A stretch of DNA of 64,000 nt. It comes from Chlorokybus atmophyticus. Taxonomy: Eukaryota > Plantae > Mesostigma and Chlorokybus algae. Positions 16,712-49,782 of the stretch are shown in pieces. How positions within the stretch are numbered: the first letter of the stretch is position 1; every line of letters begins with the position of its first letter. The notes beneath the pieces are model-generated. The model ran no database searches, had not been told where the DNA came from, and saw nothing but the letters and a program-made list of their open reading frames with translations. The translations under genes and the position numbers were made by a program. Where the stretch lies: the NCBI GenBank assembly GCA_009103225.1, contig RHPI01003587.1:186001-250000 (forward strand). Reading direction: 5' to 3'.

Positions 16712-16784
16712 CGCATCGGCCGGATTTGAACCCAGTACCTTTAGCATATCAAAGACGACGCCCTAACCACTAAGCTACAAGTGC
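16712..16784 (-). ncRNA. tRNA-like 73-nt sequence inside copy B
   Basis: Minus strand GCACTTGTAGCTTAGTGGTTAGGGCGTCGTCTTTGATATGCTAAAGGTACTGGGTTCAAATCCGGCCGATGCG. Good A-box and B-box (GGTTCAAATCC), D-stem pairs, anticodon stem broken. Confidence 0.65.
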
Positions 16785-20072: not shown

Positions 20073-20262
20073 GTCATGCTGCCAGTACAGCTGCCGAGTA
20101 GCTACAGTGCAATAGCAGAAGATGTCGACAGGTGCTGGTGTGTATCATAGCTGGCGCAAGCGCGCATGTATGCATGTATGCGCGCAACTGCGCATGTATG
20201 CATGTTTGGATGATGTATTATAGTGTACTTGAAGTGCAGCTGTTCATGGCTGACAATGGCAT

Positions 20263-28517: not shown

Positions 28518-29453
28518 CACACGGATTAACGTTCAAGGACCATGAATGGTCCGTGACGCAAGACCGGGAATTTCCCCCGCTAAGTGAAATTGACGGACCA
28601 TGCATGGTCCGACTTTCATGGACAGTTGGACCATACATGGTCAGAAGTTCACGTGAATGGTACCATTGTTCCTTGGGACGCACCAGGCATGGTGGCCAGT
28701 ATACATGAGATTTATGGACCATGCATGGTGCGATGCCCCCTGAAACAGTGGACCATCCATGGTTTGATGCTTGCTTCATGTCCGATGACTGACAGTCGCA
28801 CCATGCATGGTCCATGGATACGAATTGCAAGTCATGCTTGTTACTGAGATTGCCTGGACCAATCATGGTGCGCTGCCCTCCTTGCACAGTGGACCACATA
28901 TGGTGCCAGTCTGTCCGACAGTCGCACCATGAATGGTCCATGGCTGCCGACAAGGTGTTGCGCATACATGGTCCACAAGTGGCACCACGTACGGTCCTGC
29001 CAGGCACCGCACCATACATGGTGCGGTCTACCTTGATCTGGTGCACCAATCATGGTTTCATCATGTCACATGCATGGAAGCCATGCATGGTGTGCGTGCT
29101 GTTTCATGCACCATGCCTAGTGCATATAATCCGCCACGCATACAATTCACAAAAATGCTGGAATGGACTGTCAATGGACAGTCTGATTATGATCATCAGT
29201 ATCAAGCTAGCGTCATGCACTATACCTACAGTCTCCTACATGCACTACACGCTGCTGTTGACAATCGCAGCTGACAGCAGCTTGGTTGTGTTGCACCTTC
29301 GCCTGGGCAGCTGGACCCCATGTGAAGCCACTCCCATCTTTCCACATTGTGTGCTGACTCCCAGCCTCAGGTTCCACCGACAGCCTCAGGAGCCAGGGAC
29401 ACCCTTGGTTGACAGCCTCTGTGGACAGCCCCTGCAGCCAACTCAAATGTGTA

Positions 29454-30139
29454 TCAAATGTCTGCAAAACAACTGTGAGTCAACCTGTGCTTACACAAGA
29501 CATACAATGTTGACACACACATGCAACTATAGCAGTAAATAGTAAACCACCCACCTGGGATGCCGAGGGCTGTCGCATCCATTGCTTCTTGGGTTGCCAT
29601 GGCTTTTTCTTCCTTCCCTCGCTCAAGGCAATGTGTAGTCGTCTTGACAACTACCCAAGGAATGTCAATGACTTGCAGTTCAATATGCATACCTGGTAGT
29701 TTGCGAGATTCATATCGCCACTCGCACCCTTCTTTGACCTCGTCGTCGGCCACCAACCACTTTTTCTTTGCTGCAAAGTTGACAACTGCTCGCAAGATCC
29801 TCTCGTCTGGATAAGACTCCATTCACTCAGGATCCTTGAATGGCAGCTGGTGACAATTGGTGAATACCGCGTGCTCGATGTGCTTGTAGTACTCGTACAC
29901 GTCCATCGCCTGCTCTCTGGTGGGGGCGTTTGGTTTGGTGTCGCAAACAATTGCAGCTGCAAAATCCAAGTCCATTGCAACTGTTTGATCTTCACAGTCG
30001 AAGATGGCTTTAGCAGCCTGCACATGTCATACATCCGTCTATAGAGTGCATTGGCGACTGTCCATATGGGACAGCCTGCGACTGTCAAGTGATTGTGAGG
30101 ACCACGAGCGCGCGGCATAACGTAACGCCATACAAGCAT

Positions 30140-30192
<53 letters not shown>

Positions 30193-31792
30193 GTCCTCGT
30201 GTCTGTGAGAGGCAGTGAGCAACAGATAGTTGGACACTGTGCGTGATGTTGCAAGAGATGGTATGTGTGCTATTGTGAGTGTGCGAGCAAACGGGTGCCA
30301 ATGAGTCATGCCATGCGCTGACAACAGCCCTCACTGACCTCTGTGTCTGTGCTGTGCCGAGCTGCGGTCGTAGGCAGTAAGTCCTTGATGCAACCCGGCA
30401 CCACAATGCGATCGTCGTTGCCGCATGCCTCATATGGACAGATGCCTCCGCCGGCCAAGAACATCATGGGCCACTCCATCTCCCTGCGCTGCATGTTGTT
30501 TAACACAGAAATGTTCTTGCACTCATGCATCATACAGTCACAGCAGGAGCATATCCACAGCAAGCAATGTACCTCCAGAGTACGCCCACCATGACAGCTG
30601 CTTGCCAGCTGGCCATAGAGAAAATGCCTCTCTTTCACAGGTAGGCGAATGCCAAGGTTGCCATCCTCGCTTCTCACTGGCATCCAGTAGGTAAAATAGA
30701 CATTGTACGTCCGCATTGGATGTTCTGGCTCGCATATGGACTTGACGGCGACGCCAACAACTACTGCGTTGTTGGCAATGTCAAACACCTGATCTTCAGC
30801 GAACCCGTCCGCACCCCTGTCAGGAAATTCCAAGCTAGCAGGCAGCATGCATGTATGAATCCAGTACGCAGCCATGGAGGCACAGCTAAGCAAACCAGTG
30901 AGGACTGTAGAACTTAATCGACAGCCGACAGCACAATAATTACCTCTCTTTCAGCCAAGTAGCCTGTTACTGAGCATCTGTTAGAGGCTCAGTTGTCAAA
31001 GGCGCAAGCATGACCACCTGCTGGTTGGCCGTCAAGTCCCTGCCAATTGAAAAAGTCATGCCCCAGCCAGCAGCAGCTTCAGTAGCGCGGCTGCCTTGGG
31101 TAGCTTCCCTGTCGCTGGATCGCCTTTGCTTCTTGGTAGCATTGCGTTCTTCCGTGCTTTGCCCGTAATCACTACCGCGCTTCGCGCCAACAAAGTACTG
31201 TAGCTGGAGAACATGACTCTTGATTTGTGCTGCAGAAACACAAGCAGATGAGACATGGCAGCGACAGTCCTTTAGTAGCCATCAGCAAGGAGGTCACATC
31301 TTGGAACATAGCATAACGCAACTGGTTACTGAGCAAGCGACGACTAAAAACATGAATGATATGCAGGGCAAGAACTGTCAATGGCAAGACAGAGAAGGAG
31401 ACACAATAAAACCGCGGAGTAAGTGCCATGCTGCTTGGAAGGCTTGCTTCAACACAGCTCAACTCTACTAGCAATTTGCCTTTGGTCCATTTCAGGGTGT
31501 GGTCTGCTTTAAAGTCCAGTGGCTCTGATGCCTTCAATACAGTCTCGCAGACATCGTCCAGCTCCTGCCGGTGCTGGGCGTTTTGCTTGAAGTCTGTGCC
31601 TTGAGGTGGTGGCCACTTGCTCAGCATCTCTTTTTTCAGCTTCGCCAGGTTGTTGATATGCGTTGTGCGCATATGCGTGAACTCTGGTTTCATCAGGAAT
31701 TGCGAGCTCGTCACTTGGCCCAGCAAGTGGTTCCCCTTTGCTCTGAAGCAATCATTTGCAGCGGGCATTTGTCTTGCCTCCCCAGTGGTCAT
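29454..31792 (-). pseudogene. Multi-exon cargo gene(s) of unknown function in copy D
   Basis: Protein-like exons (EDQVFDIANNAVVVGVAVKSICEP...; AAKAIFDCEDQTVAMDLDF...PE*MESYPDERILRAVVNF) separated by GT-AG introns, one containing (CA)n. Has in-frame stops; no recognised domain. Confidence 0.5.
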
Positions 31793-32499
31793 GGTGTCAG
31801 TTGGACTGCTTGAACAAACAACTGAACTTAGAGCAAAGACAGTTGGACTTCACACTGGGGGCAACCCAAGCTGTCAACTGTCAACAGAGACTGTCATGTA
31901 AGCAAGCAAGCGTTCAAGCTGCTCACCTTTCAACAGCTGAAATCAACCGGCAAACAGCACATCAGAAGTGCAAGTGTCCTGGCACCACAGCGAGTGAGCA
32001 ACCCAAGCCGTCGACTGTCAACAAAGACTGTCATGCACGCAAGCAAGCATTCAAGCTTGTAAGCAACCTGCTCACCTTTAAACAGCTGAAATCAACTGGC
32101 AAACAGCACAGCAGAAGTGCAAGTGAGCAACCCAAGCTGTCAACTGTCAATAGGGACTGTCGGACTAGTGCCTTACATAAACAACCGCACAAGCCGCACA
32201 AGCGTTGTGAGTTGGCACAAGCCGCACAAGCCGCACAAGTAGCGCGACAATGCAACTCGCCAAGAGAGCGACGCGGCTGTCGGTAAATTAGGGTTGAACT
32301 CGCCTAGGAATTGACGGCTGTCAGCACCATGATCAAGGGCTGTCTATGGGTTGGCGGCGTACATAAGCATTGCAAGACCTTTGGCATGGTTGTTGTTGTT
32401 GTTGAGCGAAGATTTGGGGTGAAGGGTTTGGTTCAGGGTGTTGTTGGGTAGGCGTCGACAGTCTTTTGGCATAGTGGACAGTCCCAGGCAGTACACCAT

Positions 32500-35400
32500 G
32501 GCTCGAAGGAGGTCGTCCACAGCGCCGCAGTTTATATGGGGGTGCCTGACTGTATGAACAACGTGCACACTGGTCACCATGATGCAAACGGCCAACCTTG
32601 CATGGGAGAGACCAAGCCCACGAAAATCGCACAGCACTGAAACGGTGCTCTGTGCCGAATGATGCGCGTGCTCAGCAATAAGGGAGGGAGGGAGGACAAG
32701 GCTACAGTCGACAAGTTGGCAGAGAAAATTCAGCAATCCATCGGGGTAGGAACCCTCAGGCATTCTTATCCAAGTTTTTGCAACATCATGCCTGGACTGT
32801 CAACGATCTGTGCCTTGCGCATGCGTACAGCGCATTGGCATGGTGCAGATACTATACTTGACAGCCGTTGCTTTAATCTTGCGCATATCGGTTGTAATAT
32901 GAGTGCAACCGTCGTGTCCTTGGACTACATGTTTGAACGCACAATGCAAGTCACCAGCAGCGGCGTGTTGCAGGATGAGCAAGTGCCCCCTTACCCCAAT
33001 CCCACAGTCCCAAACTTGAAGCACTGCAACTGCAAGATGGCAGACATCAAGGGTATTCCAGGATATGTGAGTTACTGAATTCGCACAGCAGCAATGAAAT
33101 CATACTGCAACATGCGTACTAACCCTGCCATGTTTCAGACCAAAAAACTGTACGAGGAAATGCAACAGCTGGTGGCTATGCATACCTGAACACGCAAAGC
33201 AACATGATCTCGAGGAGCGGGAAGATCAAGAGGAGCAGGAGTAGCAGGAGAACCACAGGATGAGGATGAGGATGAGGACAAGGAGGGTGCAATACCCAGT
33301 CCACCGAAGCGGAAACCTTCAAGACGTCGCCAAGCCGCAGCGGTGGATTATGCAGCGGAATTCGCCAGTGCTCTTGAAGAGATGAACAAATTCCAGGTGA
33401 AATGCTACCCCTCAACAGGTTGCAAAGCGCCACCCAAACTTTCTGCTGACTACTTGAGGGTGAGAACATATCATGACAGCCTATGCCAATGTAATGGTCT
33501 GTGATTGTCTTTGTGTTAGAGTCTGATGGTTACTTATCACTGCATTAAACATACTAACCGGGAGATTCCAACCTCAAGCTCATCTATCGTATTATCCAGC
33601 CTCCACAGCTGGAGACAAGCACCAGCTGTGGAGGCTGGATAATGTGGAGGATGCACGAGCATCCACGCGCATCCCAGTCAACGAGCATTCCAAGTATCTT
33701 ACGCACAACTGGTTGATCAAGGACTCAACCATCACTGGTGCTGGACTGGGACGATTTGCCTGCGAAGACATTCCAAACGGTACGTACACGTGTGTGCGTG
33801 TGTATCTTTGTGTGCATGTCTCTCTGTATACTCGCGGATCACTCATGACTTGTGCGCATCTGTGCAGAGGCTTGCCTGTTGCCATATGACGGCAAATTGT
33901 TCAAGCAACAGGAGATGAAGAAGGTCTTGCATTATTACCAGCAAATCAGCGACATCCGACACCACCGGCAATATCACGTCAACCTGTTCCCACCAGATAC
34001 ACCAAGCCAATATCAGGTTGTCATCGACGGGCACCCCCGCACTGGCTGTGTAGCGGCTTACATCAATTCCGCACATGGGCACACTCAGCCCAACATCATG
34101 TTCTACTCGGACTTCGATGACGTCGGCCACCCAGCTGTCACTATGTATGCGGCTAGGGACATTAAGGCAGGGGAGGAGCTACTCTTAGATTACACCCCTT
34201 TCCCTGCGCCACCAGACGGGCAGACAGACCAAGTAAGTGTGATTGCATTGCTGCATGCCCAGTTTGCATGCCTTGTTAATGCGACTGTCAATGCGAGACT
34301 GTGAATGACTCTAAGACTGTGACACTGAAAGCTAACTTGCCTTCGTTGCTGGCAGACCCAACTGTTGCAAACGGAGGATGCGGCGCAGAGGCTTGCGAGA
34401 AATTGGAAGTTGACCATGGAGGACGCTACGTGGTTGCTTACCAGCAAGCCACCAAGGCAGCTTGACGAGAGTGACTTCGCAGATTCCATGTGTTTGGTCC
34501 AGCGTGTCTTCAGCATGCCCAATGCGGACGCAAAGACAAGAATGGTGAGTTGTACTGACAGTCTTCCCATAATGACAGTCTCTCTGACAGTCTCATCAAC
34601 AGTCTGTTGTTTGCATTCCTGTCGCAGTGCACTTGCATGCACTGTGACATGTATGCTAACGAACAAGATCACGTGCATGTGTCAACAGATAGATTTTAAA
34701 GCCCATATTCAGCGTCAAATATCTGTTCATTTCTGTAAAGCGGTTTATGATGCTGCCTACAAAATGAAAGAGGATGCAAACGGACAAGTAGACGCCCTTA
34801 AACAAGTCATTACGGAATTAGACCTACGGATTGAACAAGAGAATGTGATCAGGGTACGTCAGCATGTGGTGCAACTTTCACTTCACACATTTGCTTAAAC
34901 TGTTACCTGTTTTCGAAGGAAAAGGTCGCAAGTATCCACAAAACTTAGACAGCAGCCATTGCTACCAGAGAGGGGGCTCTCACCAGGCAGGCGACAGCAT
35001 TGGCACTGAAGGGAGAGGACTGGGAAAAGGATTGGGAGAGAAAGATCCGGGGTATGCTGCAGAAGGGCTTCAAGGAGTCCAGAAAGGAATGGCTTGACGA
35101 ATACAAGCGGGACATTGTGCGTACACTTGTAAAAGAGCAGAGCGAAGCTGACACACGGGCGGAGGCACAAGCTGCAGCATCTTTGTTGGTGACGATCAAC
35201 AACCCTGATACTTCCCATTCACACGACGATCATCTCCATCAGTTGAGAGTGCCCTTGCACCCCGCACCTCCACTACTGAAGACCTGGCTGGAGAGATAAG
35301 CTGAGCGTGAAAATCCTCCACCTGACACTCCACTTCCCCACAGTCCCAAGAACAGTCCACCTTATGACAGTCGCGCGGACAGTTCACCAGCCGACAGTCC

Positions 35401-37608
35401 ACCTCACCACAGTCTCCATGACAGTCCCCATCCATCTGTCAAGAGAAAGAGAGGGTAAACAAGTGCCCCCATGTCTAAACCCCCAGCTGAGAAGAAACGT
35501 CCCCTTCAGCCAGATTCTCCTGCACGGCAAACTCTACCAGCTGTGCGGCCACAAGCTGGAGAGGAGGCTCTAGCAGCAGCGCGTGATACAGTGAAAGGTT
35601 TTAAGAAGGCCCACGAGGAGCACCGCAAGGCCGTCAATGACGCATCAAGATCGAGCGAGGAAGTGGCAAACGCTGTGGAGATTTCTGCAGAACAGCTGTC
35701 ATTCGCCCTCGGGCTTACAAGAGAAGCATTGGTGAGAATAATTGCATCGCGTACAGTCTTTGTGGAAGAGGGGGGGGGGGGGGGGGGGGGGGGGNACTTG
35801 ATGTCTATGTGCAACAGCAAGGACAAGAGCGCGTTCTTGCAACTCGTGACAACCTGCAGACCAGCCTAGTCAGTGTGAACGAAGCGCGCAAGCAGTATTA
35901 CCAGCGTACTCTTTACCTCGAAGTAGCGGAGTCGCAGCAACAGGTTGCAATCCTTTGCAAGGAGTTACAGGAGACGCAACAGAGGGCTGCAGATGCCAAC
36001 GCTGAGGTCGCCCGGGTGCGCAAGGAGTTGGAGGAGACGATGAAGACAGCATCAAGAACAAACAATGAGTTCAACCTACTCTTAGCCGAGCTGCGCAAGA
36101 GGTTCCATGAATCGGAGCACAGGGCTGGGGCATCAGATGCTGTTATTGCCAAGCTGCGCAATGATTTGGAGGAGACGGAGCAGAGGGCTGCATTAACCGA
36201 TGCTGAGGTCAACAATGTGCGCAAGGGTTTGGAGCATGCGGAGCAGAGGGCTGCAGTTTCCAACTCAAAGGTCGCCAAGCTACAAAAGGACTTGGCGGAG
36301 TTGTAGCATGGGGCTGCAGATTCCAACTCTGAGGTTGCCAACCTGCGCAAGGAGAGGGAGGATTTGCAGCAGAGGGCTGCAACCACCAATGCTGAGGTCG
36401 CCAACCTGCAAGAGGAGTTGACTACAGCACTCGAAGCCGCCAAGGAGCGTGCGGCATCATTTGAGGCCCAGATTCACGGCCTCGAATTACGAAACATTGA
36501 TTTGCAATTGCGCATGCAGGCGATGGCCTCCCGCTCCTCTGCGGGCGCCAAGATTGGGGAAGAGATGGAGAGTTCTCGGCAGCGCATTCGTCAGCTGGAG
36601 CAGGAAATATCAGAGCAAGCGACGAGGCAGTCAGCATCAGAGGCTGTCACAGGGGCTGTCAATGCCGCGACAAGGAGGGCCAATGAAGCAGAGCAGCAGC
36701 TGGCAGAGGCGCAAACCCGCTATCAAAAGCTGGAGTAGAGGCTGGCTGCAGTGCCTTCAACATCAGAGGCTGTCGGAGGGGCTGTCGACGCATGCGTTGA
36801 AGAAAAGCTGAATGAAGCGCTAGCAGGTGCAGAAGCTTTGAACAAGCAGGTGAGAGACCTCAAAGAACAGCTGGACAAGCAGGTAGCAAATCACAGAGCA
36901 CAGCTCTAGCAGCTAGCACAGGATCGTGTGCAGTATCTCATCGGCAGAATCAGGGAGTGGGCGCGTGAGGTCTCCAACCAATCTTTTGCACTGCGAGGCT
37001 ACGAACGTACAATAGTGTTGGGCCGTTTGCCAAACACTCAGCTCTTTGACGATTGGCCACAAAGATTTTGGGAGGACCCAGTCGAATGGCCGGGTATCTT
37101 TATACGGCGTGCAGCTCAATTCAGGCAGGCGTGGCAGCAATCACAACGGAGTGCCATTCCATTCACTGGCTTTCAACAAGGTGCCAGTGGGTTCTGGGAC
37201 TTCTATAGAAACGCCGTGTCGCACTACACTGGCATCTTGCAGGAACCCGAAATCACAAGGCGCGCTACCCTAATTTCCATGTTTGACATAATGGTTGTCA
37301 TGCTATCAACGTTTGTGCACTACCTCCGTGACCTTGACGAAGGGATGGCTTCATTTTGAGGACCAGCGGCAGCGCCATTGTATCAGCTACAGCGTCCAAT
37401 GGACTATGCCGCTGCATGGGCGTGGTTGGCATACCCCGCAGGTGTATCAGCCCTCAGCAGCTACCGCGCTCAGTGCTCCATACTAAGACCTCCTCCTCCT
37501 CCACCTCCTGCTGCTGGTGCTGCTGCTGGTCCTCCTCCTCCTCCTCCTGCTGCTGGTGCTGCTGCTGGTCCTCCTCGTCCTCCACCTCCTCCTTCTGATG
37601 CTGGTTGA
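32500..37608 (+). pseudogene. Large multi-exon cargo gene: unknown N-terminus, SET domain, helical region, long coiled coil, Pro-rich tail; several in-frame stops outside the SET exons
   Basis: Successive GT-AG-bounded exons on one strand; SET exons are in phase with the next exon (acceptor ~34355); 63-bp (21-aa) coiled-coil repeats at ~36100-36420. Start position approximate. Confidence 0.65.
33710..34195 (+). CDS. SET domain (lysine methyltransferase fold), two exons
   Basis: WLIKDSTITGAGLGRFACEDIPN-(intron 33780-33867)-EACLLPYDG...VIDG...AAYINSAHGHTQPN...MYAARDIKAGEELLLDY. All SET motifs present, including the terminal Tyr, with no stops. Confidence 0.88.
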
Positions 37609-37826
37609 TGTTCCCCTGGTTTATAGCTTCAGTGTAAGTTGCCTAGCAATTGGCCTTTGCGCACTGCAAGTAGAACTGCTGGTACGCTTGACCCTTCCTT
37701 GTGTACATAATCTGTGAAATGTACAAGTGTGTTACTCACAGTACCAATGCGTGCTTCGTAATGCCTTGTGCCAAAAACACACACTGATAGTGTTGTTATC
37801 CAACAGTCCTTTGAACAGCCGATTGT

Positions 37827-38977
37827 TCATGGGACTGTCAAGGAACAACACTGATGAGACAAGTGATGCGTACCCGCCTCAGCCTCTCCTGCTTTGTAGT
37901 ACATGATGTGCCTGTCGTAAAACATACGCACAACCTCAGTTGTCGGCTGCTTTTGCCATCTGCCTTGATCAACTTGCTGCCAGTTGAGCTTCCTCTTGAC
38001 CGCAATGGGTGATACCTTTTGGTTGCTACAGTCCTTATGGACCACCCACCGCGGTAGGCCTTGGCGAGCACTCAGTGATCTAGGAGCAGGCTTCAGGTAG
38101 CCAACATGTTGCCTTCATCGTCAACTTGAGGCTGTCGAACAATAACAATCCATGGCGGAGGATCATCAGATACAGGTGCTGGTGGGTTAGTTGGCACGCG
38201 AAAGTCAAAGACCGACTTGTCCTCATCCTCATGTCTCACAAGCAGCACATCCCCGGTTTCAGGCCATACTGGCAGAGGTATATCAGCTGCTCGCAATCGC
38301 AGCTTTGGGTTGCTGAAATCGTAAGCCAGCATGTAGGGGAGCAGTCTTGGTCTCTCCGTCAGCATCCACACTGTGCGCAGCAGCTGGTGGCCTCGGACAA
38401 GAATGTTGGTGTTTTCAAAACGCCCCACATGCAAGGCACCGGAGTCCGCGTCCATGCATTGATATTCAGCAGCATTTTTTCGCAGGCTGTAGCGGTTGAC
38501 AGCAATGTGCACATGGCACTCGGTGTGAAAGAACATGAAGATTTTGTTGACGATGGCTGGCCTGTTTCCATCCAGCATCACAGCATCCTTACAGTCGCGC
38601 TTGTGTGGGTGTGAGAGAGAGAGAATATCAGTCAGTCGTAGTTTAACACAGTCTCAGCATTGACAGTCTGTGCGGCTGTCAATGCTGGGACTGTAGATAT
38701 CAGAGATAGAGACCCTATAACAGTCGCACCAGTGACAGTTTGTGCAACAGTCGTTGGTGGGACTGTCGATGACAACTGTGCTGCATTCATAATCAAGATA
38801 TAAAGCACACCTGTATACCAGGCCATCCCTCATATAAACTTTGTAGTCGCGCACTGTCCGCCGTGTCGGGGTGCCAATGGCAATGTTCTCTTGTGCACAG
38901 ATGCTCTCGAACAAGCCGTCGCTCGCGAAGTAATGAATGTTGCCTCGCCCAATCACTATGCCTTGTTCTTTTATGCA
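37827..38977 (-). pseudogene. 3' portion of the CACTA transposase gene (beta-rich C-terminal region, possibly BAH-like), separated by the gypsy insertion
   Basis: The frame ...AYPTLAHSRRI|KEQGIVIGRG...RDYKVYMRDGLVY rejoins across the LTR element. Later exon reads ...WPETGDVLLVRHED...DPPPWIVIVRQPQ. Contains stops. Confidence 0.55.
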
Positions 38978-39743
38978 TGTAACAGCCAAGGCCAATTTCG
39001 TGATTTTCATGGCCATTTTCGGCCTTATTTGTAAGGTACAATGCTTTCATGACTTGTGGCGGATATCGGCGAGTTATGAGTCTGCCGCGGATATCGACCG
39101 GGGCCCAAGACCAGTCTGCAAGACGCCAGAAAACGGAGGGCCAGTCGAGAAGGGCTCGACCAGATTTCTGGAAGGGCCTGGCGCCAAGTAGTATAACTTG
39201 ACCATATGAGCAGCAAATGGGGAGATCTTGGGTGCGTCGGAAAGGTCTAGAAGTGTACTACAAGATTATGCAAGAATATCTTAGCTTCTAGTTCCTTCTA
39301 GCGCTAGAATCGTCTAGACAATAGCATGTGCAGACTGGTAGGTATAAAAATGACATTCTACAATTTGCAATACAACCTTTAGCTCCCTAGTTTCTTGTGT
39401 GCAAGCTTGGTGGTGGTTAGCAGGGGTTGCTAGCGTGTGACCACCGGTGTATGCTCGCTTGTGTGACGATCCAAGGCGCTACACAAGTTGGTGTGTAGCT
39501 TCGAGCGCATGCGCGTGCGCACGTGAGTGGCGGGGCGCGTGTGTGTGCTTGGCAGAGGGGGCAAGGTTCCGGTGTGAATACCGTGTCTTGGTGAGAGGGT
39601 TGTTGATTGGACCAGCTCACTCAGGTAGCAAGGCACGAGCACCGTCACAACTGGTATTGGAGCGCGGTTTACGAAGGTGAGAGAGGAAGTGTGCGAGCGT
39701 GTACACTTTTCTCTCGGAAGCGGAGTGTAGTGTGTTAGTGGAG

Positions 39744-40778
39744 ATGGAGGATGCTCGCATGGAAGAGCTTCAAGCTGCCATCTTAGCATTGAGGGAAGAG
39801 CTTCATCACACTCAAGCGGCGGCACAAGCACAACGCGAGGCGTATGAGCATGCGATGGCGCGCGTACAAGTTCCCATGGCATCAAGCTCGCACGTGCATG
39901 TGAAGGTGCCAAAGCCCAAGCCATTCAAGGGTCAGCGTGATGGAGATGCAGTAGATGAGTGGAATTCTCAAGTATCGTCTTGGTTGAAGCTCATGGAGGT
40001 GCCCACGCATCTGCACGTGGAGGTTGCAGCGACATTGCTCGAAGGTGCAGCACTTGTATGGTGGAGACATCGTTGTACGCGAGTTGCAAGTGGGTTGGTG
40101 CTACCATTGACCACCATGGACGAGTTGGCAATGGAGATCAGGCATCAGTTTGTTCCCGTGGAGAGCGTGAAGGCCGCACGCGACAAAATTGCAGCTCTTA
40201 TGCAAACGGGGTCGGTGACGGCGTACACGGCTATGTTTCAGCGTTTGGTGATGTCCATACCCAACATGACCAAGGAGGAGCTGTTGGACAGGTACACACG
40301 TGGTGTAAAGCCTTTGGGACGCAAAGAAGTCGAGCTACGGGACCCTAAAACGCTGGCGGAAGCTATACGCATCGCGGAGCGCCTCGACGCGTTATACTTC
40401 AAGTCTACGGCGATAAACACTGATTGGAGGCGTGGCAGGCGTGATGATCAGCCTGGCGGACGCTTTCAACATGCATGGACACAAAGAGAACCAAGTTTAC
40501 AACTTGCAAAGGGAGGTGGAGCTGATTCTGGACCATCACCAATGGAGGTGGGTGCGATACATATGCGCAACGGCGTAGCGAAGCACGGTGGACATACAGA
40601 GGCAGGTAGCAGCGTGCGCAAGTGTTACGTGTGTGGTTCAACCGAACATTTGGCATTCAATTGCTCGAAGCGGCGCACGCAAGCGACTACATCAGCTAGC
40701 AACACAAATCGCTCGCGACGCATCAACACAATGGAGGAAGATGGCGTGGAGGATCAGGGAAACGACTTCCCCCAGTAA
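39744..40778 (+). CDS. Gypsy gag with CCHC zinc knuckle
   Basis: PKPKPFKG, AALVWW, QTGSVTAYTAMF, GPSPMEVG, CYVCGSTEHLAFNC. Confidence 0.9.
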   Translation: MEDARMEELQAAILALREELHHTQAAAQAQREAYEHAMARVQVPMASSSHVHVKVPKPKPFKGQRDGDAVDEWNSQVSSWLKLMEVPTHLHVEVAATLLEGAALVWWRHRCTRVASGLVLPLTTMDELAMEIRHQFVPVESVKAARDKIAALMQTGSVTAYTAMFQRLVMSIPNMTKEELLDRYTRGVKPLGRKEVELRDPKTLAEAIRIAERLDALYFKSTAINTDWRRGRRDDQPGGRFQHAWTQREPSLQLAKGGGADSGPSPMEVGAIHMRNGVAKHGGHTEAGSSVRKCYVCGSTEHLAFNCSKRRTQATTSASNTNRSRRINTMEEDGVEDQGNDFPQ

Positions 40779-40831
40779 GTAAGGAGGCTACTGCTTGGGA
40801 TGAGGGGAAGCCTCACACACAAAAGAAGATT

Positions 40832-43800
40832 GTGACATCGCAATCAAGGACGAAAGTGGAAATGGCTATGAACACGCCAATGATGGTGAGCTATGCAAAA
40901 GAGGAGGCAACGAAGTACGTTGGTCTTCGAGCGCGCATTTGCGATGACCGAGGACAATGGAGGGAGTGCAACCTTATGGTTGATAGTGGAGCGAACAGCA
41001 ACTTTATGAGTGAGGAGGTTGCACGGCGCTACGGTTGGCTTTCACCATTACGAGGAGGAGAAGTGAAACTCGCTGATGGTGAACCACCCTCTGGAGGTAC
41101 TGGCACTTCATTTCCAAGCAAGGAGTTGTGTGTCCACATGGGGAAGTTGAAGGAGACTATGCGTTTCTGCTGCATCACCCTACGCAACGGGTTTAATGGG
41201 ATTTTGGACTACCGTGGTTGCGGCAACATAACCCATCTATCAATTGGAGAAAGCGTGTGCTTACCATCAAAGGAAGTGATGGAGAGCCCATTCAAGGTCT
41301 ACGCGCGTGCTCCATCGAAGTGGAAGACCACTCTTGCGACGAAAGCAAGAAGGGCGTTGTCACAGCTACGTCCGATTTCGCCAAGGCAAGTATGAGCATG
41401 TGTATTGAGCACCTAAAAGGGGATACAAGCACCAGAAAGGCACGGCACGCGCAATCAGGTGGGCTTAGCATTGCTCAAGTTTCTTATGTGCAATTGAGGA
41501 AGCTGCTATCCCCACGACAAGCAAAGGCTGCATGGTTGTGCGTGGTGCGCGAGAATGCATTAAAGTCCGCATCGAAGCTGAGCGACCATACTGAGACAGC
41601 TGCGATGGACCCCGAGGTGTGCAAAATTGTCAAGGACTATCAAGATATCATGGTGAACGGACTTCCAGCTGGTCTACCACCCTCACGGAGCGTCGATCAT
41701 CGTGTAGAGCTGATTGAGGGCGTGCACAAGCCACCCTACAGGCCTGTGTACAAATTGTCATCTCTGGAGTTGGAGGAGGCCGAGAAGCACATAGCGGATC
41801 TGCTAAAGAGAGGCTACATCCGACCAAGTAAGTCACCTTACGGTGCACCTATATTGTTCGTTCATAAGAAGAACGGGAGCCTGCGAATGTGCATTGACTA
41901 CCGAGCGCTCGACACGATTACAAAGAAGAATTGCTTCCCATTACCGCAAATTGACGAGTTGCTGGAGCAACTACAAGGTGCGCAGTATTTTACCACACTT
42001 GATCTTGCTGGGGGTTATCACCAGATCCGCATCGCACCTGAGGACGTGGAGAAGACAGCGTTTAACATGCGCTATGGACATTATGAGTGGTTAGTGATGT
42101 CGTTCGGGCTTACGAACGCGCCAGCGACATTTCAGACGTTGATGAATAGCGTTTTTGCGGACCTGATTGGTAAAGGAGTTCTCGTGTACCTCGATGACAA
42201 TTTAGTGAACGCGAAGACAAAGGAGGAGCATGTGAGTCTCGTACGGCGCGTGTTGCAGCGTTTACGCGAGCACAAGTTGTACGCTCAGCTACAGAAGTGC
42301 AAGTTTCTGCTACGCGAGGTGGAATACCTAGGCCACATTGTGTCGCATGAAGGAATCAAGCCGGACCCCAACAAAGTGCAAGTGGTGCGCGAGTGGTCGG
42401 CCCCAACCAATGTGAAGGAGGTAATGTCGTTCTTGGGCCTTGCGGTGTATTATCGCAAGTTATCATGGGATTTTCGCGCATTGCGGCCCCTTTGACCACC
42501 CTACTCAAGAAAGGGAAGCCTTGGAGCTGGTCTACAAAAGAAGAGCATGCATTTGCTGCGTTGAAGAAGGCGTTAACAGAGGCACCCGTCTTGGCTCACC
42601 CCGACATGGACAAACCCTTTATTTTAGCTTGTGACGCATCTGACACGGCTGTGGGAGCTGTGTTACAACAAGACCAAGGCATGGGTCTTCAACCTGTGGC
42701 GTTCTTCAGTAAGAAGCTGAGTGGAGCCGAGCTGAACTATCCTGTTCACGAGAAGGAGCTATTGGCCCAAGTGATGGCGCTACGACAATGGCGATGTTTT
42801 CTTGAGGGCAAAAGGTTCGTGCTAGAGACAGATCATTCCCCATTGAGGTACTTACAGACACAACCACATCTGAGCCGGAGACAAGCGCGGTGGTTAGAAT
42901 TCTTTCAACTCTTTGATTTCGTGATTTAAATACAAGCCCGGTACGTCCAATAGTGTGGCCGACGCGCTGAGCCGGCTTAATGCAATTGGGGCACTTGCTC
43001 AAGTACAGCCCGAGTGGATCGTCCAGATTCGGCAAGTGCTTCGTGAAGACACGGAGGGTATGAAAGTGTTGCAAGAGCTGGAAAATGCAGCTACGGACAC
43101 AAGTGGGCATTGGTCGATGCGCGACGGGCTACTATGGCACCACGGGCGCTTGTACATCCCCAATGTCGCGCATATCCGTGTGAAGTTGCTGAAGGAAGCT
43201 CATGACGTGCCCATTGCTGGTCACCAAGGGTTGGAGAGGACTTTGGCAAGCTTGAAGCAGCGTTTTTACTGGCGAGAGATGCATCGCGATGTGCGCGACT
43301 ACGTGGCGTTGTGCGACGCATGCCAAAGGGTGAAGGCAAGTAACCAAAAGCCAGGTGGGTTGTTGCAACCTCTCCCTGTGCCATTGTCCAAGTGGAAACA
43401 AGTTACTATAAACTTCATTACGGGGCTACCGAAGACGACAGAAGGGCATGACGCGATATTGGTGTTTGTGGATAAAAACAGTAAGATGGTACGCTTGGCA
43501 CCGTGTGATGAGTCTTGCACGGCACCGGAGGCAGCACGCTTGTTCGTGAAGCATGTGTTTCGTTCTTATGGATTTACCACGAAGCATTGTGAGCGATCGC
43601 GACCCGCGCTTCACAAGTAAGTTTTGGGAGGCGCTGCATAGTGCACTGGGTACCACATTGTAGTTTAGCACGGCATTCCACCCGCAAACTGATGGGCAAA
43701 CGGAGCGGGCCAACCGTGTGATTGAGGACATGCTGTGTTGCTACATTAACGCGTGACAAGATAATTGGGCGGAGCTGCTTGAGTTGGTGGAGTTTGCGAT

Positions 43801-44487
43801 CAGCAACCACCAAAATGCAAGCACAGGTGTCACCCCCTTTTTCATGAACTATGGGCAACACCTATTGACACCGTTATCGGCATGGACACCACGACGACGT
43901 GACGTGGATGTGGAGGCAGCTAGTGACTTCCTCACAAAGTGCGCGGACATGAATAAGGCAGTTAGGGAGGCACTATTGGTGGCACAAAACAGGCAGAAGC
44001 AATACGCGGACGCGCATCGCCGACACCTCACGTTTCAGGAAGGCGACATTGTGTTGCTCTCCGCAAAGCATGTACAGGTGCGTACGGGAGTTCGCAAGTT
44101 GAATGACCGCTGGTTGGACCATTCAAGGTCAGCAAAGTCATCTCGGACGTGGCATATAAGCTGGAGCTGCCCGACACCATGCGTGTACACCCCGTTTTCC
44201 ACGTCTCTCTTTTAAAGGCATATCGAGGACAACCGCCACAACGGCCGCCCCCCAAAGTTGGCACGGATGGTGAACCAGAGTGGGAGGTAGAAGACATCCT
44301 TGGTGAGAAGTTTGTGCATGGCGTGCACAAATTCTTAGTGAAATGGAAGGGCTATCCATTGCATGAAGCATCCTGGGAGCCGGAGGCACACTTGGCAAAT
44401 GCTCGAGACGTTGTGCGGGACTACCTTGCTCGACGACAACTTCCCGAGCTTCGAGGACGAAGCTCACCTAGCGGGGGAGGAGTGTAA
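40832..44487 (+). pseudogene. Gypsy pol: protease, RT, RNase H, integrase, chromodomain; frameshifts and stops
   Basis: MVDSGA (PR), RMCIDYR...YLDD (RT), CDASD...TDH (RH), H-H-C-C and integrase core, GPY/F remnant, EWEVEDIL...FLVKWKGY...SWEP (chromo). Distributed over several frames. Confidence 0.92.
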
Positions 44488-45149
44488 CAGCCAAGGCCAA
44501 TTTCGTGATTTTCATGGCCATTTTCGGCCTTATTTGTAAGGTACAATGCTTTAATGACTTGTGGCGGATATCGGCGAGTTATCAGTCTGCCGCGGATATC
44601 GACCGGGGCCCAAGACCAGTCTGCAAGACGCCAGAAAACGGAGGGCCAGTCGAGAAGGGCTCGACCAGATTTCTGGAAGGGCCTGGCACCAAGTAGTGTA
44701 ACTTGACCATATGAGCAGCAAATGGGGAGATCTTGGGTGCGTCGGAAAGGTCTAAAAGTGTACAAGATTATGCAAGAATATCTTAGCTTCTAGTTCCTTC
44801 TAGCGCTAGAATCGTCTAGACAATAGCATGTGCAGACTGGTAGGTATAAAAGTGACATTCTACAATTTGCAATACAGCCTTTACCTCCCTAGTTTTTTGT
44901 GTGCAAGCTTGGTGGTGGTTAGCAGGGGTTGCTAGCGTGTGACCACCGGTGTATGCTTGCTTGTGTGACGATGCAAGACGCTACACAAGTTGGTGTGTAG
45001 CTTCGAGCGCATGCACGTGCGCACGTGAGTGGCGGGGCGCGTGTGTGTGCTTGGCAGAGGGGGCAAGGTTCTGCTGTGAATCTCGTGTCTTGGTGAGAGG
45101 GTTGTTGATTAGACCAGCTCACAGGTAGCAAGGCACGAGCACCGTCACA

Positions 45150-48130
45150 ATGCGCCTGGAGTGTGCCAGGGTGGGGTATGCTTCCACAAGCGCCCAAATA
45201 TCCTTTGCGTGCTTGATTGTGGACGACCTCATACCAGGTGGACCCGTTGAATTTTGTTTTGCAGATTGTAGACAGTATGTTGCCAACTCTATGGCAGAGC
45301 AGCAGGCCTGAACGCTGATCGTCACGCATGACGCCAAATAGTCGCACAAACCATCTCCTGACAGAACGTTTTATGAAGCTGATCTCGTAATCCTTGCAGT
45401 TGGACGGGGTGCTGACATGCAGTTCCACAGCGCGCTCAGAGGCGTAGCACCAGAACACGTCATGGCTGCCGTGTCTACGGATGTTGTCAAGCAGGTGGCA
45501 AGTTCCCGCAATGTGCTCCAAAGTCTTTTTATTGGTGCCACACCAGATTTCGCTGTTGACCTTCCAGTACCTGAGCAATGCATCCGCGAGCTCCAGGCGG
45601 TCTGAATCCCAACCAAAGCGCCGTGAGATGTTAAAGAATAAGCGGAAGATCGTGTGGAGACACATGACAAGATCTCTCCTTTCTTCGCTGAGCAGCTTGT
45701 GCAAAACATAGGGCACACCAAATTGCACGAAGAACAAATGCTCATGCGCCTTCCACCATCCAAGGTGACTGCTGAGGCCGTGTGGCCAGCAATTACCATT
45801 TTTCACCTCTCTTGGTCTTGCATTTTTCATCACAGACAGCCGACTGTCGATGTCAGCCTTGCTGACCTGCTCGTCCCCACCATCCATCAGAGTGCAGGCT
45901 GTCAAGCTCTTGGCCAGTCCTTCGGTTAGCATGTGCATGGTGTCAAAGACCATGTCCTGACATGAGCCAAACTTGTACATCCGCCAAAGCCTCCACAAAG
46001 GCGACAGCCCGTTGACGCCATACTTCTTTGCCTGTTCTTTCTTGCAATTGGGATCTTCTGTGCTTTCAACTTCATCGGCCAGCTGGTTTGTGGCCTCTAC
46101 AATTCTTTTGGCAAATGGATGGCGACTGTGGTAGCGGCTGCTAGCATAGTGGAAGTCGGTCCTGTTGCTCCGAGTTTCTTCAACAACATCGTTGCCAGTG
46201 CTGGGATCTTGAGTGACTTTTGGTGACAAAAGAGTACCAGATATGAGTTGCCAGCAGGCAACAAGCCCTGCAACCGCATAAGCCGCCATTCTTGAATTGC
46301 CCCATCTCGCTTTGGGCTGGAATGTTACCGACAATGTTCATGACCATGGCTCTCAGGAAAATCTTATCACCTGCAAACCATTGGAGGCATCAGGACTCAC
46401 TGCTTTGTGCGCAACAGCGCGCGTACGCGACTATGTGCGGGACACAGCCGCGACTGTTGATTTGAACTGTCGAATAATGGACATGGGCAGGCGCATAAAC
46501 TGCATGTGTAAGCCAATGAAGCAACACACAGACTTTACACACTGACTTGACAGTCGCATGGACAGCTTGCTCAAGCGAACTTATACAAGCATAGCAGTGG
46601 AGTGCATAAGATTGACAGTCGCGGTTGACAGCGCAAAGACAGTCCTGAGCTTAAACAAGCACAACAATGCATTTCATACATATGATCGTCGCAAGCACAG
46701 CTGCGTGCGCGTGGCACTGCTAAACAGATGCATGCGAGCGTACCAGCCAATCAATGAGGGCGCTTGATGTCCACCTGGCTAGAGTCCAAGCCGTAGTGCG
46801 TGGGGAAGCCCATGGCGTACAAATCCTCCAACTCATCCACCATGGGCTTCATGAACGGGTTTAGACAGTCCTTGTCCGCGTCGAGTAGCTCGTCAACTGG
46901 GACAAATACTACTAGCATGACGGAAGACGCCTGTGAGCTGACGCGCTTGCCTCCATTGAGCACAACGACGTTGATGACAAGAGTGCTCCGCTTTGTTGTG
47001 GATGCGCAGCTGAAACCATCACTGTGCAGCATAAGCCCAATGTTGCATGGGTCTCCAGTACACTGCTGCGCAGCCTCTTTATTCTGATAGGAGCACTCGC
47101 AATGCCATTTCTGATAACCATCCCTGTGCTGCGACATGTCAATATCATAATTGTAGCATCCACAGTCGCATTTGTTTGGCAGAGGGATGGTCTTCGTGTA
47201 GTCCCAAAAAGCAGTCAGATTTCTCCACTTGCTGCCATGCCAAGCTTCCCATTAAGGAGCTGGGGGATGGTTTGCTGGCACGTTGAAGCAGGTGTCTTTG
47301 TCTCGCCAAGCAGCAAGGTTGTCATATGCGATCGAAGGAACTTGCAGCCACGGACCGAGTCTTGGACCAATGGGCGTGTACAGAAAATCTATACACTTCT
47401 TGCACGTGCGCCCGCATTCGCCTCCGCACGGCTGTTCCCACAAGCATTTTTTCGGAATCTTGTGGCGACTGTCGTCTTGGCAGCTGTCCTCGCAGTCATC
47501 GTAGCCTAATGGATAGGCATCTGGAAAGAGATAATTGCATTGCGTGCATGCTATATATCTATGCGACTCTGGCATTCCGATGGAAGTCACCAATGCATCG
47601 ACGGCCGTGATGTCAACCGGCTGGGAGGGGTTGCGCTGGCCGAGCAAGGCATGGAGATCATTACGGAGCTGACTGTGGTCGTATGCGGGATCCTTGGCCA
47701 GCTGTACAACGGAGTCTTCGGCATCAAAAACAGTCTTCAGCACGTTGTTAATCAGTGATTGCTGTGCATGAGAGTCCTCCAAGTCTGTCAGCAACGACAT
47801 GAACTTGTTCAGCATTTTTTGCATGGGTGTTTTCGAGGACTGTTGTTGACGAGAAATGCCTGGTTGAGGTGCATCACATTGCGCTGAAGGCATTGGCGGG
47901 GGTTGCATACTTTCTTGCGCTGCCTCGTTCAATCGCATGTGAGCCAATGAAGTCTCCAACTCAACCCACTGCCCAATCGCAACATACGACTGCCAATGTA
48001 GGTAGCATGCAGCTGCCCATGTTTGGCAATGCTGAAAGTGCGCGCATGGTGCAGTGGGCCACGGACAGTCGCAGGCATGCAGCATTTCCAGACATGGGCA
48101 GCTCCAGTACGACAACTGTGCGCGCAACAA
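45150..48130 (-). pseudogene. CACTA/EnSpm (TnpD/Transposase_21-like, Plavaka-like) transposase, 5' and core part
   Basis: CxxC (CTQC), NIGLMLHSDGF, LNPFMKPMVDELEDLYAMG, DMVFDTMHML, WKAHEHLFF, HLLDNIRRHG...WCYASER. A few in-frame stops and at least one intron. Confidence 0.85.
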
Positions 48131-49536
48131 GTTGATTGCTCACCTTGCCGCCGCACCTCAGGCAAGAGCAAATTGTGTAGGACACTTCTTACTGTTCTGG
48201 ATCATCATCATCGCTACTAAGAGGCTCAAACATGTCTGCAATTGGCATGTCAACAGTCGCTGTCGATCCGACTGATGCTGAAGTGGAGCAGTTGCGGCGC
48301 TACTGGAGCTGGGCATGTTGACAGTCGGCTATGGATCAGCCTGATGTACGAGCGGAGCTGTCGCGGTACTGCTGGTGCTGGCAACATCAAAAGTCGGCAG
48401 TCCAGCTGACTGTTCCCTCTCGTGAAGTGTAGCTGCCGCTTCATTGCTGGTGCCGGCCAAATCAACAGTCGGCTGTCCAAGCACGGGATGCCTGAAGCAA
48501 TCTTGCAGTCAGTGACACACCACATGCACTGGCACCATCGGCTGACAGTGGAGATAACAGCAAGGCAGCAAGTGCACTAAGTTCATCGACAGTCTCTTAG
48601 CATGGTGAAGGCTGTTTATGTACAGCATTCCTATTGTTAGTGGCATGCATACTGTCATGTATACTCAATGAAGAGCAGTACGCCAGGTACAACAGCGTGG
48701 TGAACTTACTGCTCATGCTGCTGGCTGATGTCGCTATGCTGCCCGAGCATGGCCGGATCTTCATGGGCGGGCTGAGGGTTGACAGCCTCAATGGGCTGGT
48801 CATCAACCACATGGTGCTGGACGACATCAGCCTGCTCCGGTAAGGGTAGGGAACTCTATTGGCTGCGATGGCGGTTGTTCCTACAAAAGGTGTTCCTTTT
48901 ACTGGCTGGTTGCAAGTTGATTCCCAGCTTAGTACTAATGTCCTTGGCGAAGCGGACAGCCTGTTTACTGGCCATTGGTACAGCTAGATTCTGCCAGCAA
49001 AGACACCGCCAACGAGGCCGCCGCCACCAACCAGAGCGCCGCTCCCTCAGCCACCTTTCTGAGCGCAACCCTATCACGCAGACCATATCGGTAAGAACCC
49101 TATTGTTGGCCCATGCACGTGACTCGACAGTCGCACCATGCACGGTGCGACTGTCAAGTCTTCACTCCATGTAATTACTGGATATGCCGACCGTTCGATA
49201 CGCTTGAATCGACGGTCAAATGAGAGGCTGGGCTATGTCTTGAATCCCAGCGTCCGCGCAATCTCAGCTATGACGTGTATCAGATACGAGAACATGTAAA
49301 ATTTCAAACATCTTATGGCAGTAGGAGGGATGTGCTGGTTAGCCGTGGCAATGCATCCGCTTGTCCAAATGCATGCACTAACGCGGTCAATGAGCACATC
49401 CTCCGCTGCCATAATTTGCAGGTACTTCGTTTTTCATCCGTCGCGCCGGTAGTGGCCAGTAGTGGCCCATGCATGGTGCAACTGCCCAGTCTTCACTCCA
49501 TGTAATTACATAATATGCCAAACCGGAATCATTTTA

Positions 49537-49782
49537 CGTGAGGACCAACCTCGAACCATGCATGGTTCAGCAATCATGGGGTACCGACCATGCATGGTCC
49601 CTACCCGTGGATAATGGGATTAGGAAGAGCCTGGTTGGGTTAAAGACCGGAATCGTTTACGTGAGGACCAACCTCGAACCATGCATGGTTCAGCAATCAT
49701 GGGGTACCGACCATGCATGGTCCCTACCCGCGGATAATCGGATTAGGAAGAGCCTGGTTGGGTTAAAGACCATGAATGGTCC
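49537..49782. repeat. 123-bp tandem duplication in the right subterminal array of copy D
   Basis: cgtgaggaccaacctcgaaccatgcatggttcagc...gggttaaagacc occurs at 49537 and 49660, nearly identical. Confidence 0.9.

What the first reader, a model, noticed from the sequence alone, without database searches (positions are those of the whole stretch)
33565..34232. Minimal SET domain with all catalytic motifs intact, fused to a long coiled coil
GAGLGRFA, YINS...N and RDIKAGEELLLDY are preserved and the intron phases fit. There are no pre-SET or post-SET Cys clusters, so it looks more like viral/bacterial or PR-type stand-alone SETs than canonical plant KMT families (impression from motifs). The SET exons have no stops while flanking exons have several, which may be chance.
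Basis: partly seen in the sequence, partly recalled or inferred. Interest (0 to 1): 0.7.

Follow-up and report, generated by a model that had tools for sequence, protein, structure and literature searches.

The report
Broken transposon-borne SET methyltransferase gene
A broken gene inside a cut-and-paste jumping gene encodes a SET (protein-methylating) domain, predicted to be spliced to a long coiled coil and possibly an RNA-cutting tail, so intact copies would likely let the element write chromatin marks; SET cargo is already known from related jumping genes.

Summary
The SET domain is real (Pfam 32.5 bits, above cut-off) but is neither intact nor stand-alone. It is a passenger gene of a 21.8-kb EnSpm/CACTA-type DNA transposon (28518-50285: CAC..GTG ends, ATG target duplication, tnp2-like transposase on the other strand). 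This copy is dead: eight premature stops, a frameshift about 130 nt upstream of motif I, and the R of GAGLGRFA is a mutation (relatives in two sequencing runs read L). The NHS motif reads NSA/NSV in all copies seen; the catalytic Tyr is kept. A ~85% identical copy shows a modest synonymous excess (p 0.01-0.02, partial list), so the family probably kept a working SET. Splice phases predict one >1,150-aa protein: SET, ~400-aa linker, coiled coil, and a terminal domain with an RNxxxH motif and a weak hit to a HEPN RNase family (lead only). Stop-free SET exons are chance (p 0.4-0.5). The H3-like pseudogene lies outside the element. SET cargo is known from red-algal Plavaka/EnSpm, HarbingerS, MuDR and Helentrons, and this scan noted CACTA+SET before in bryophyte DNA with a different layout. 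Verdict: new variant of a known kind.

The parts
28518..50285 (.). EnSpm/CACTA-type DNA transposon, 21,768 nt (about 15.6 kb without the nested LTR element); ends CACACGG at both termini, 23 of first 30 nt match; target duplication ATG at 28515-28517 and 50286-50288
28518..29000 (.). Left terminus and subterminal repeats (GGACCA/TGGTCC 12 copies, 24.8 per kb; interior 0.5 per kb)
49500..50285 (.). Right subterminal repeats (16 copies, 20.4 per kb) and terminus
33139..33459 (+). Predicted upstream exon of the SET gene (donor at 33397 or 33460, both phase 0); acidic and basic stretches; two premature TGA at 33187 and 33205
   Evidence: further 5' exons between about 32330 and 33070 not resolved
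33520..33779 (+). Exon with SET motif I (GAGLG at 33737; following residue R here, L in relatives); frameshifted in this copy
33591..33643 (.). Perfect hairpin (22-nt arms, 9-nt loop) specific to this copy; net +13 nt against the closest relatives causes the frameshift
33780..33867 (+). 88-nt GT-AG intron, phase 1, inside the SET domain
   Evidence: predicted; no RNA
33868..34232 (+). Main SET exon: YINS (34059), PN, ELLLDY with catalytic Tyr (34176-34193)
   Evidence: Pfam PF00856 E 1.2e-7; Atlas
34356..35731 (+). Three predicted linker exons (34356-34544, 34689-34853, 34919-35731), helical then Pro/Ser/Asp-rich; stops at 34946, 35297, 35456
35860..36906 (+). Coiled coil built of 21-residue repeats (63-nt DNA repeat); stops at 36304, 36736 and, just after it, 36907
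   Evidence: 3.5-residue periodicity above all 1000 shuffles
36910..37359 (+). Stop-free C-terminal helical domain with RNAVSH (37207-37224), possible HEPN RNase; terminal TGA 37357
   Evidence: TIGR02391 (Ymh) E 4e-4, 20.5 bits, below cut-off 39.45; lead only
45150..48139 (-). Decayed tnp2-type DDE transposase: DGF (first D, near 47020), second D position reads N (near 46326), CxxC (near 46272), DTMH (45944), W-x-Y-x-x-ER (45452)
   Evidence: Pfam Transposase_21 E 3.3e-5, 23.6 bits, below cut-off 28.6; motif roles partly recalled
38096..38977 (-). Coding DNA beyond the LTR insertion, probably the transposase 3' part or a further ORF
   Evidence: frame across the empty site not resolved
38978..45149 (+). 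Nested Ty3/Gypsy LTR retrotransposon (TG..CA LTRs, 649 of 667 aligned nt identical; 5-nt duplication with one mismatch) interrupting the transposase
29457..31849 (-). Second decayed accessory gene of unknown function, divergent from the SET gene
   Evidence: covered by related copies; no family hit

Best explanation
This is a dead copy of an accessory gene of an EnSpm/CACTA-type DNA transposon, and intact copies likely encode a large protein whose SET domain would methylate lysines on chromatin to help the element escape host silencing. Shown: the SET domain, its place between the element's termini, the lesions that kill this copy, and the existence of several related copies. Supported but modest: purifying selection on the SET exon between subfamilies. 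Predicted: splicing of SET, linker, coiled coil and terminal domain into one chain of more than 1,150 residues. Inferred: SAM binding through the GxG motif and the kept Asn (His replaced by Ser, as PRDM9 replaces it by Cys and stays active), methyl transfer helped by the kept Tyr, dimerisation or spacing by the coiled coil, a histone substrate, and benefit to the element. My odds: transposon cargo 0.93; this copy non-functional 0.95; SET catalytically active in intact copies 0.55; histone substrate serving the element, if active, 0.65.
For: CAC..GTG termini, 3-nt duplication and dense subterminal repeats bracket the gene; the same termini and 3-nt duplications recur at two sister elements in the window; tnp2-like transposase inside. 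Runs X1 and X2 (2 studies) hold 51 and 37 contigs at 80-99% identity covering 30 of 30 bins of 30300-35760. The closest copies read GAGLGLFA and have an open exon. A ~85% copy keeps the SET spacing, INS and IxAGEEL and has 6 synonymous against 3 non-synonymous listed changes in 34011-34079 (pN/pS 0.16-0.20, p 0.009-0.018). The window copy differs from its closest relative neutrally (pN/pS about 1.0) with a deamination-type bias (141:76 and 134:65). Precedent for SET cargo in EnSpm-superfamily elements. His-to-Cys at this position in PRDM9.
Against: No RNA run or spliced read tests the gene model. The selection test rests on 9 changes from a table that showed 40 of 53 rows (14 of that copy's 28 differences) and was chosen after looking. 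The related contigs are short (longest 1,935 nt) and were not shown to lie between termini. The close copy in X2 has a stop of its own (33909), so no intact copy was seen. The canonical His of NHS is missing in all copies. The transposase hit is below Pfam's cut-off. No DNA- or histone-reader domain was found to aim the enzyme at its own element.
Confidence: 0.62

Rival explanations
1. Transposon cargo whose SET domain is a catalytically dead or weak scaffold or decoy (binding histone tails or host methyltransferase partners), the work being done by the coiled coil and terminal domain.
For: His of NHS absent in all copies seen; no close active relative; no post-SET element.
Against: GxG, Asn and catalytic Tyr are all kept; PRDM9 lacks this His and is active; loss of the Tyr is what cripples PRDM7 and the Tyr is present here.
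Confidence: 0.18
2. A passively captured host gene fragment (Pack-CACTA style) that never served the element and drifts neutrally.
For: Every copy examined closely has lesions (window; X2 close copy); pN/pS about 1 between window and closest copy; stop-free SET is chance.
Against: A whole multi-exon gene of more than 1,150 codons in one frame; synonymous excess and indels that sum to whole codons in the diverged copy; no conserved host family recognised as donor.
Confidence: 0.13
3. A stand-alone viral, bacterial or PR-type SET in host DNA that methylates the neighbouring H3-like protein.
For: Minimal SET without Cys clusters; weak match to the LegAS4 model; Atlas neighbours include bacterial SET clusters.
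Against: Lies inside transposon termini; has spliceosomal introns; no relative in viral or prokaryotic collections; no PR-domain hit; the H3-like gene is a separate pseudogene outside the element.
Confidence: 0.05

Closest known systems
PAG2 of giant Plavaka (EnSpm/CACTA superfamily) elements of red algae (bioRxiv 10.1101/2025.02.11.637652; passages read; supplements not seen)
   Same: Giant (17-19 kb there, about 15.6 kb here) EnSpm-superfamily element with several accessory genes, one carrying a PF00856 SET domain; most copies degenerate; function untested.
   Different: PAG2 joins SET to an N6-adenine methylase (PF01555); here SET is joined to a coiled coil and a terminal RNxxxH domain, and no methylase, ParB or 2OG domain was detected. 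Termini are CACAC, not the Plavaka TGT or CATCA types (PMC12730594).
HarbingerS and oomycete MuDR elements with SET genes (cited in PMC12730594, passages; the Repbase Reports originals not seen)
   Same: DNA transposon carrying a SET methyltransferase gene, proposed counter-silencing role.
   Different: Other transposase superfamilies; no coiled-coil fusion reported in the passages read.
proto-Helentron-Pi SET ORF (PMC4067079, passages)
   Same: Minimal SET as transposon passenger.
   Different: Rolling-circle element; intronless ~153-aa ORF 50% similar to Clr4; here a spliced multidomain gene without a close KMT relative.
SETD8/KMT5A (PR-Set7, H4K20 mono-methyltransferase)
   Same: Best solved relative by sequence (E 0.015); minimal SET without Cys clusters (recalled).
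   Different: Match is confined to the C-terminal motif and not significant enough for orthology or substrate; NH motif differs.
HEPN RNases of the Ymh family (PMC3710099; passages and section 6 read)
   Same: R-N-x3-H motif with polar residue after R in a ~120-aa helical C-terminal domain; weak hit to TIGR02391 over the motif.
   Different: Hit is below cut-off, not repeated by Pfam, PADLOC, PHROG or PDB; Ymh members described there are prokaryotic, with no SET fusion mentioned.

Membership tests
EnSpm/CACTA DNA transposons | Termini 5'-CAC..GTG-3' (PMC12730594) | tested here: met
   CACACGG at 28518 (+) and 50285 (-)
EnSpm/CACTA DNA transposons | 3-bp target site duplication | tested here: met
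   ATG on both sides; sister elements TAT and CAA
EnSpm/CACTA DNA transposons | Subterminal repeats | tested here: met
   20-25 motifs per kb at the ends, 0.5 per kb inside
EnSpm/CACTA DNA transposons | tnp2/TnpD-type DDE transposase with C(2)C and H(3-4)H between second D and E | tested here: inconclusive
   Transposase_21 E 3.3e-5, below cut-off; CxxC present; H-x4-H at 45782 and H-x5-H near 45515, homology of position not checked; second D reads N in this copy
Plavaka lineage with PAG cassette | Termini TGT..ACA or CATCA..TGATG | tested here: not met
   CACAC ends
Plavaka lineage with PAG cassette | SET fused to N6-adenine methylase (PAG2) | tested here: not met
   No methylase hit in the element's frames scanned with Pfam; decayed short exons could be missed
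SET-domain lysine methyltransferases | Pfam SET above curated cut-off | tested here: met
   32.5 vs 22.4 bits
SET-domain lysine methyltransferases | GxG motif I | tested here: met
   GAGLG at 33737; next hydrophobic position is R here, L in relatives
SET-domain lysine methyltransferases | NH[S/C]xxPN pseudoknot motif | tested here: not met
   NSAHGHTQPN; Asn and PN kept, His replaced by Ser in all copies seen; so filed as a divergent SET fold, not as a canonical KMT
SET-domain lysine methyltransferases | ELxF/YDY with catalytic Tyr | tested here: met
   ELLLDY 34176-34193; listed change at 34190 in relatives is synonymous
SET-domain lysine methyltransferases | SAM and lysine pockets in the fold; activity | tested here: inconclusive
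   Only exon 2 could be folded; pLDDT 45, no meaningful match; activity not testable
PR/SET (PRDM) | PR-domain profile and zinc-finger array | tested here: not met
   No PF21549 hit at E<=0.1; no C2H2 hit in the gene's frames
Viral vSET / bacterial stand-alone SET | Small intronless stand-alone protein with relatives in viral or bacterial genomes (recalled) | tested here: not met
   Spliced, embedded in a long frame; no relative; phylogeny not possible for lack of reference sequences
HEPN RNases | Rx4-6H with polar residue after R | tested here: met
   RNAVSH at 37207, the only such motif in the 149 residues; RNxxxH expected 0.01 times by window composition, noticed before the profile hit but not pre-specified; conservation in relatives not tested
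HEPN RNases | Four-helix HEPN fold or profile membership | tested here: inconclusive
   TIGR02391 E 4e-4 below cut-off, 1 of 9 proteins scanned; none; model pLDDT 47, generic helical bundles only
HEPN RNases | Metal-independent RNase activity, dimer active site | not testable with these tools
   Needs assay

The most novel reading that the evidence does not exclude
Intact elements encode a two-headed counter-silencing protein: a divergent SET lysine methyltransferase at one end and a HEPN ribonuclease at the other, held apart and dimerised by a 350-residue coiled coil, so that an EnSpm transposon both writes chromatin marks and cuts RNA (for example host silencing RNAs). No such fusion turned up in the paper searches made.
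Probability: 0.17. Interest if true: 0.78.

Novelty: new variant of a known kind. Interest (0 to 1): 0.42.

Why it matters
Transposons that carry their own chromatin enzymes are the mirror image of host silencing, yet none of the papers read reports a test of a transposon-borne SET enzyme. This family adds a new architecture (SET, coiled coil, possible HEPN RNase) in an EnSpm element of what is probably a green alga, in a genome where other EnSpm elements were noted to carry DNA methyltransferases. It would matter if a natural intact copy proved active on histones, or if the tail proved an RNase. The copy in this window is a pseudogene, and SET cargo as such is known, which limits the surprise.

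Tried and rejected
No whole genome was held, so copy number and intact copies could not be counted. Homologue searches found nothing usable: SET exon, longer proteins (42 candidates, none at E<=0.001) and near-length proteins (5 candidates, none at E<=10); transposase (972 candidates, none); contig scans for SET, for the C-terminal domain and for the transposase (one locus, L001, judged noise). The 3 HMMER hits are multi-SET repeat proteins scored on summed short matches, not relatives. No RNA holder listed; runs X3 and X5 gave no real cover. AF2 of the SET exon (3-row poor alignment, pLDDT 45) and of the C-terminal domain (single sequence, pLDDT 47) were low-confidence and their fold searches uninformative. 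A dimer job for the C-terminal domain gave no answer. Atlas search of that domain gave only unnamed clusters under 0.9. Exon 1 piece against PDB gave a chance fibronectin match. Fetching Ymh-family members for a profile comparison failed. Rejected: that the 14013-15140 / 59395-60568 inverted repeat bounds one giant element (they are two opposed copies of a non-autonomous sister family); that the hairpin is a MITE (no other copy in the element-versus-window comparison; relatives share most of it); that stop-free SET exons show selection on this copy. A SET phylogeny with vSET and algal host SETs was not possible.

Full report
OBSERVATION. The second exon alone scores 32.5 bits on Pfam SET, above the cut-off of 22.4, and 29 of 30 Atlas neighbours are plain SET clusters (best 0.96), the other one SET with a PR share. 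There is no Cys in the 30 residues before motif I nor just after the catalytic Tyr. The claim that all motifs are intact does not hold. The three defining motifs are GxG, NH[S/C]xxPN and ELxF/YDY (PMC6054832, passages). Here the second reads NSAHGHTQPN, and the position after GxG-L-G is Arg.

SURROUNDINGS. The window is a nest of transposons. A 26-nt terminal motif beginning CACAC occurs seven times. Six of these pair up into three elements, each with a perfect 3-nt target duplication: 13427-15743 (CAA), 16282-24903 (TAT) and 28518-50285 (ATG). The last contains the finding. Its ends carry dense GGACCA repeats (12 in 483 nt and 16 in 786 nt, against 11 in the 20.5 kb between). On the minus strand at 45150-48139 lies a decayed transposase with a Transposase_21 (tnp2) hit (E 3.3e-5, below cut-off) and DGF, CxxC, DTMH and W-x-Y-x-x-ER motifs (roles partly recalled). 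A Ty3/Gypsy element (38978-45149, LTRs 649 of 667 identical) has inserted into it; without it the element is about 15.6 kb. CAC..GTG ends with 3-bp duplications are the stated criteria for EnSpm (PMC12730594, passages). The element holds three genes: transposase (-), the SET gene (+, converging on it) and an unknown accessory gene (-, 29457-31849).

GENE MODEL. Five GT-AG introns of 65-144 nt keep one frame from the SET domain to TGA 37357: 1,063 codons from 33620, with 6 internal TAG/TAA stops. An upstream exon (33139-33396 or -33459) adds 86-107 codons with 2 TGA stops. The order is SET, about 400 residues of linker, a coiled coil of 21-residue repeats (3.5-residue periodicity 1.43, maximum 1.19 in 1000 shuffles), then a stop-free 149-residue domain. 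The fusion is a prediction: no RNA holder was listed. With 8 stops in about 1,170 codons the chance that the 132 SET codons escape is 0.38, or 0.49 weighted by stop-prone codons.

RELATED COPIES. Two public runs from two studies, X1 and X2, hold the region as contigs: 51 and 37 laid, 80-99% alike, 30 of 30 bins covered; X3 and X5 gave 2 and 3 short pieces. Where they differ by a transition, the window has A/T and the contigs G/C 141 times against 76 (X1) and 134 against 65 (X2), the mark of deamination in this copy. On 33440-34260 (40 of 53 difference rows shown) one contig per run spans the stretch at about 96%. It has Leu where the window has Arg in motif I, and lacks a net 13 nt in the perfect hairpin at 33591-33643. 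With its listed differences the exon from 33520 is open into motif I; in the window it hits a stop. So this copy's SET cannot be reached in frame from that acceptor, and the upstream exon is broken anyway. Between window and close copy pN/pS is about 1.0 (4 synonymous, 14 non-synonymous listed changes). The X2 close copy has a stop of its own at 33909. A second, ~85% copy spans the SET in X1 (294 letters where the window has 305) and part of it in X2. It keeps INS and continues IKDIQAGEEL, its small indels sum to whole codons, and in 34011-34079 its own listed changes are 6 synonymous and 3 non-synonymous (pN/pS 0.16-0.20, p 0.009-0.018). Only 14 of its 28 differences in X1 were visible, so this is modest evidence. 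No copy seen has His after the Asn. The contigs are too short to show that they lie between termini.

ORIGIN. No relative was found among proteins, viral, metagenome or prokaryotic contigs or phages (best E 0.9). HMMER over 1.84 billion representatives returned 3 proteins, multi-SET repeats matched on the C-terminal motif. PDB gave SETD8 first at E 0.015 among 31 rows up to E 1, none of them vSET or PRDM. NCBIfam gave LegAS4 at 21.8 bits against a cut-off of 550. The domain is therefore a divergent orphan: not in a conserved host family at this sensitivity, but with no positive sign of viral, bacterial or PR origin. Folding was uninformative, since only the second exon could be submitted.

THE TAIL. 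The last domain has RNAVSH at 37207, its only Rx4-6H; RNxxxH is expected 0.01 times in 149 residues of this window's frames. I noticed the motif first; NCBIfam then returned TIGR02391 (hypoth_ymh) over residues 85-131 at E 4e-4, 20.5 bits, below the 39.45 cut-off, in a scan of 9 proteins. Ymh is listed as a HEPN family, and HEPN is defined by Rx4-6H with N, D or H after the R in a 100-120-residue helical domain (PMC3710099, passages and section 6); I take TIGR02391 to equal PF09509 from the shared name. Against it: Pfam, PHROG, PADLOC and PDB show nothing, the two clues are not independent since the profile rewards the motif, and no upstream Ex3[KR] is evident. I give HEPN about 0.3.

H3-LIKE NEIGHBOUR. 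A spliced H3-like gene at about 26098-26928 (-) has two stops in its 5' part, no ARTK or ARKS and a histone fold nearest to CENH3 (Cse4/CENP-A, E 2e-8). It lies outside the element's left end, so it does not travel with the SET gene.

MECHANISM. Shown: SET cargo, dead copy, multicopy family. Inferred: intact copies make a nuclear protein (basic clusters such as KRKPSRRR and KRKRG) whose SET binds SAM through GxG and the kept Asn. The His contact is replaced by Cys in active PRDM9, and it is loss of the Tyr that cripples PRDM7 (PMC4919437, passages); the Tyr is kept here. The likeliest purpose is to alter lysine methylation on chromatin in the element's favour, by analogy with proposals for other transposon-borne modifiers (PMC12730594, section 4.2 read, where function is stated to be untested) and with the tested Spm and VANDAL regulators (bioRxiv 10.64898/2026.08.24.746577, passages). 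Substrate lysine and targeting are unknown; no reader or DNA-binding domain was found.

KNOWN KIN AND NOVELTY. SET cargo is in print for red-algal Plavaka elements of the EnSpm superfamily (PAG2), HarbingerS and oomycete MuDR (cited) and a Helentron; giant EnSpm elements with accessory genes also occur in Ectocarpus (PMC12477816, passages). This element works like those but is not a Plavaka by its termini and lacks the PAG2 methylase. Earlier notes of this scan describe CACTA elements of mosses and liverworts with a SET exon inside or just ahead of the transposase gene, and EnSpm elements with Tudor-methyltransferase cargo in this same genome, thought to be an early-branching green alga; these are unchecked AI notes, and no sequence look-alike of this gene was among them. 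Searches (listings) showed no SET-coiled-coil or SET-HEPN cargo gene; Repbase Reports are not in the library and the Bostrychia supplements were not seen, either of which could hold such a case.

VERDICT. Observation partly confirmed; interpretation partly supported. New variant of a known kind; interest 0.42, carried mainly by the new architecture and the HEPN lead.

Noticed in passing
window 26098-26928 (-): Spliced H3-like pseudogene with a long non-canonical tail; histone fold nearest CENH3 (Cse4/CENP-A, E 2e-8); premature stops; outside the SET element. May be cargo of another, undefined element.
   Followed up: partly
window 13427-15743, 16282-24903, 56066 onward: Non-autonomous sister elements with the same CACAC termini; first two have 3-nt duplications CAA and TAT; the third is an inverted copy of the first with a Tc5/pogo-type element inserted.
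   Followed up: partly
window 18226-24744: Tyrosine-recombinase (DIRS/Ngaro-type) retrotransposon with split direct repeats, an 808-codon RT ORF ending in a weak Dam methylase hit (PF05869, E 0.002) and a 461-codon recombinase ORF on the opposite strand.
   Followed up: no
window 29457-31849 (-): Second accessory gene of the element, no family hit; contains a GCxxxxxANAL stretch that resembles Cys-protease motifs (recalled, untested). Better covered by related contigs than the SET gene.
   Followed up: partly
window 33591-33643: Perfect 22-nt-arm hairpin made in this copy, probably by template switching, since relatives share the right arm and part of the rest.
   Followed up: yes
window 54035-54898 (-): 288-codon ORF whose end resembles an AP2 DNA-binding motif (recalled); no Pfam hit at E<=0.1.
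   Followed up: no
window 53045-53596: Array of about five 112-nt repeats; a 123-nt tandem pair at 49533-49771 inside the right subterminal region.
   Followed up: no
window 19-588 (+): Frame resembling a PUL domain of a Doa1/PLAA-type host gene (recalled, not searched); possibly the only host gene in the window.
   Followed up: no
window 35770-35795: Poly-G run with an N; falls inside the predicted intron 35732-35859, so it does not affect the frame.
   Followed up: yes
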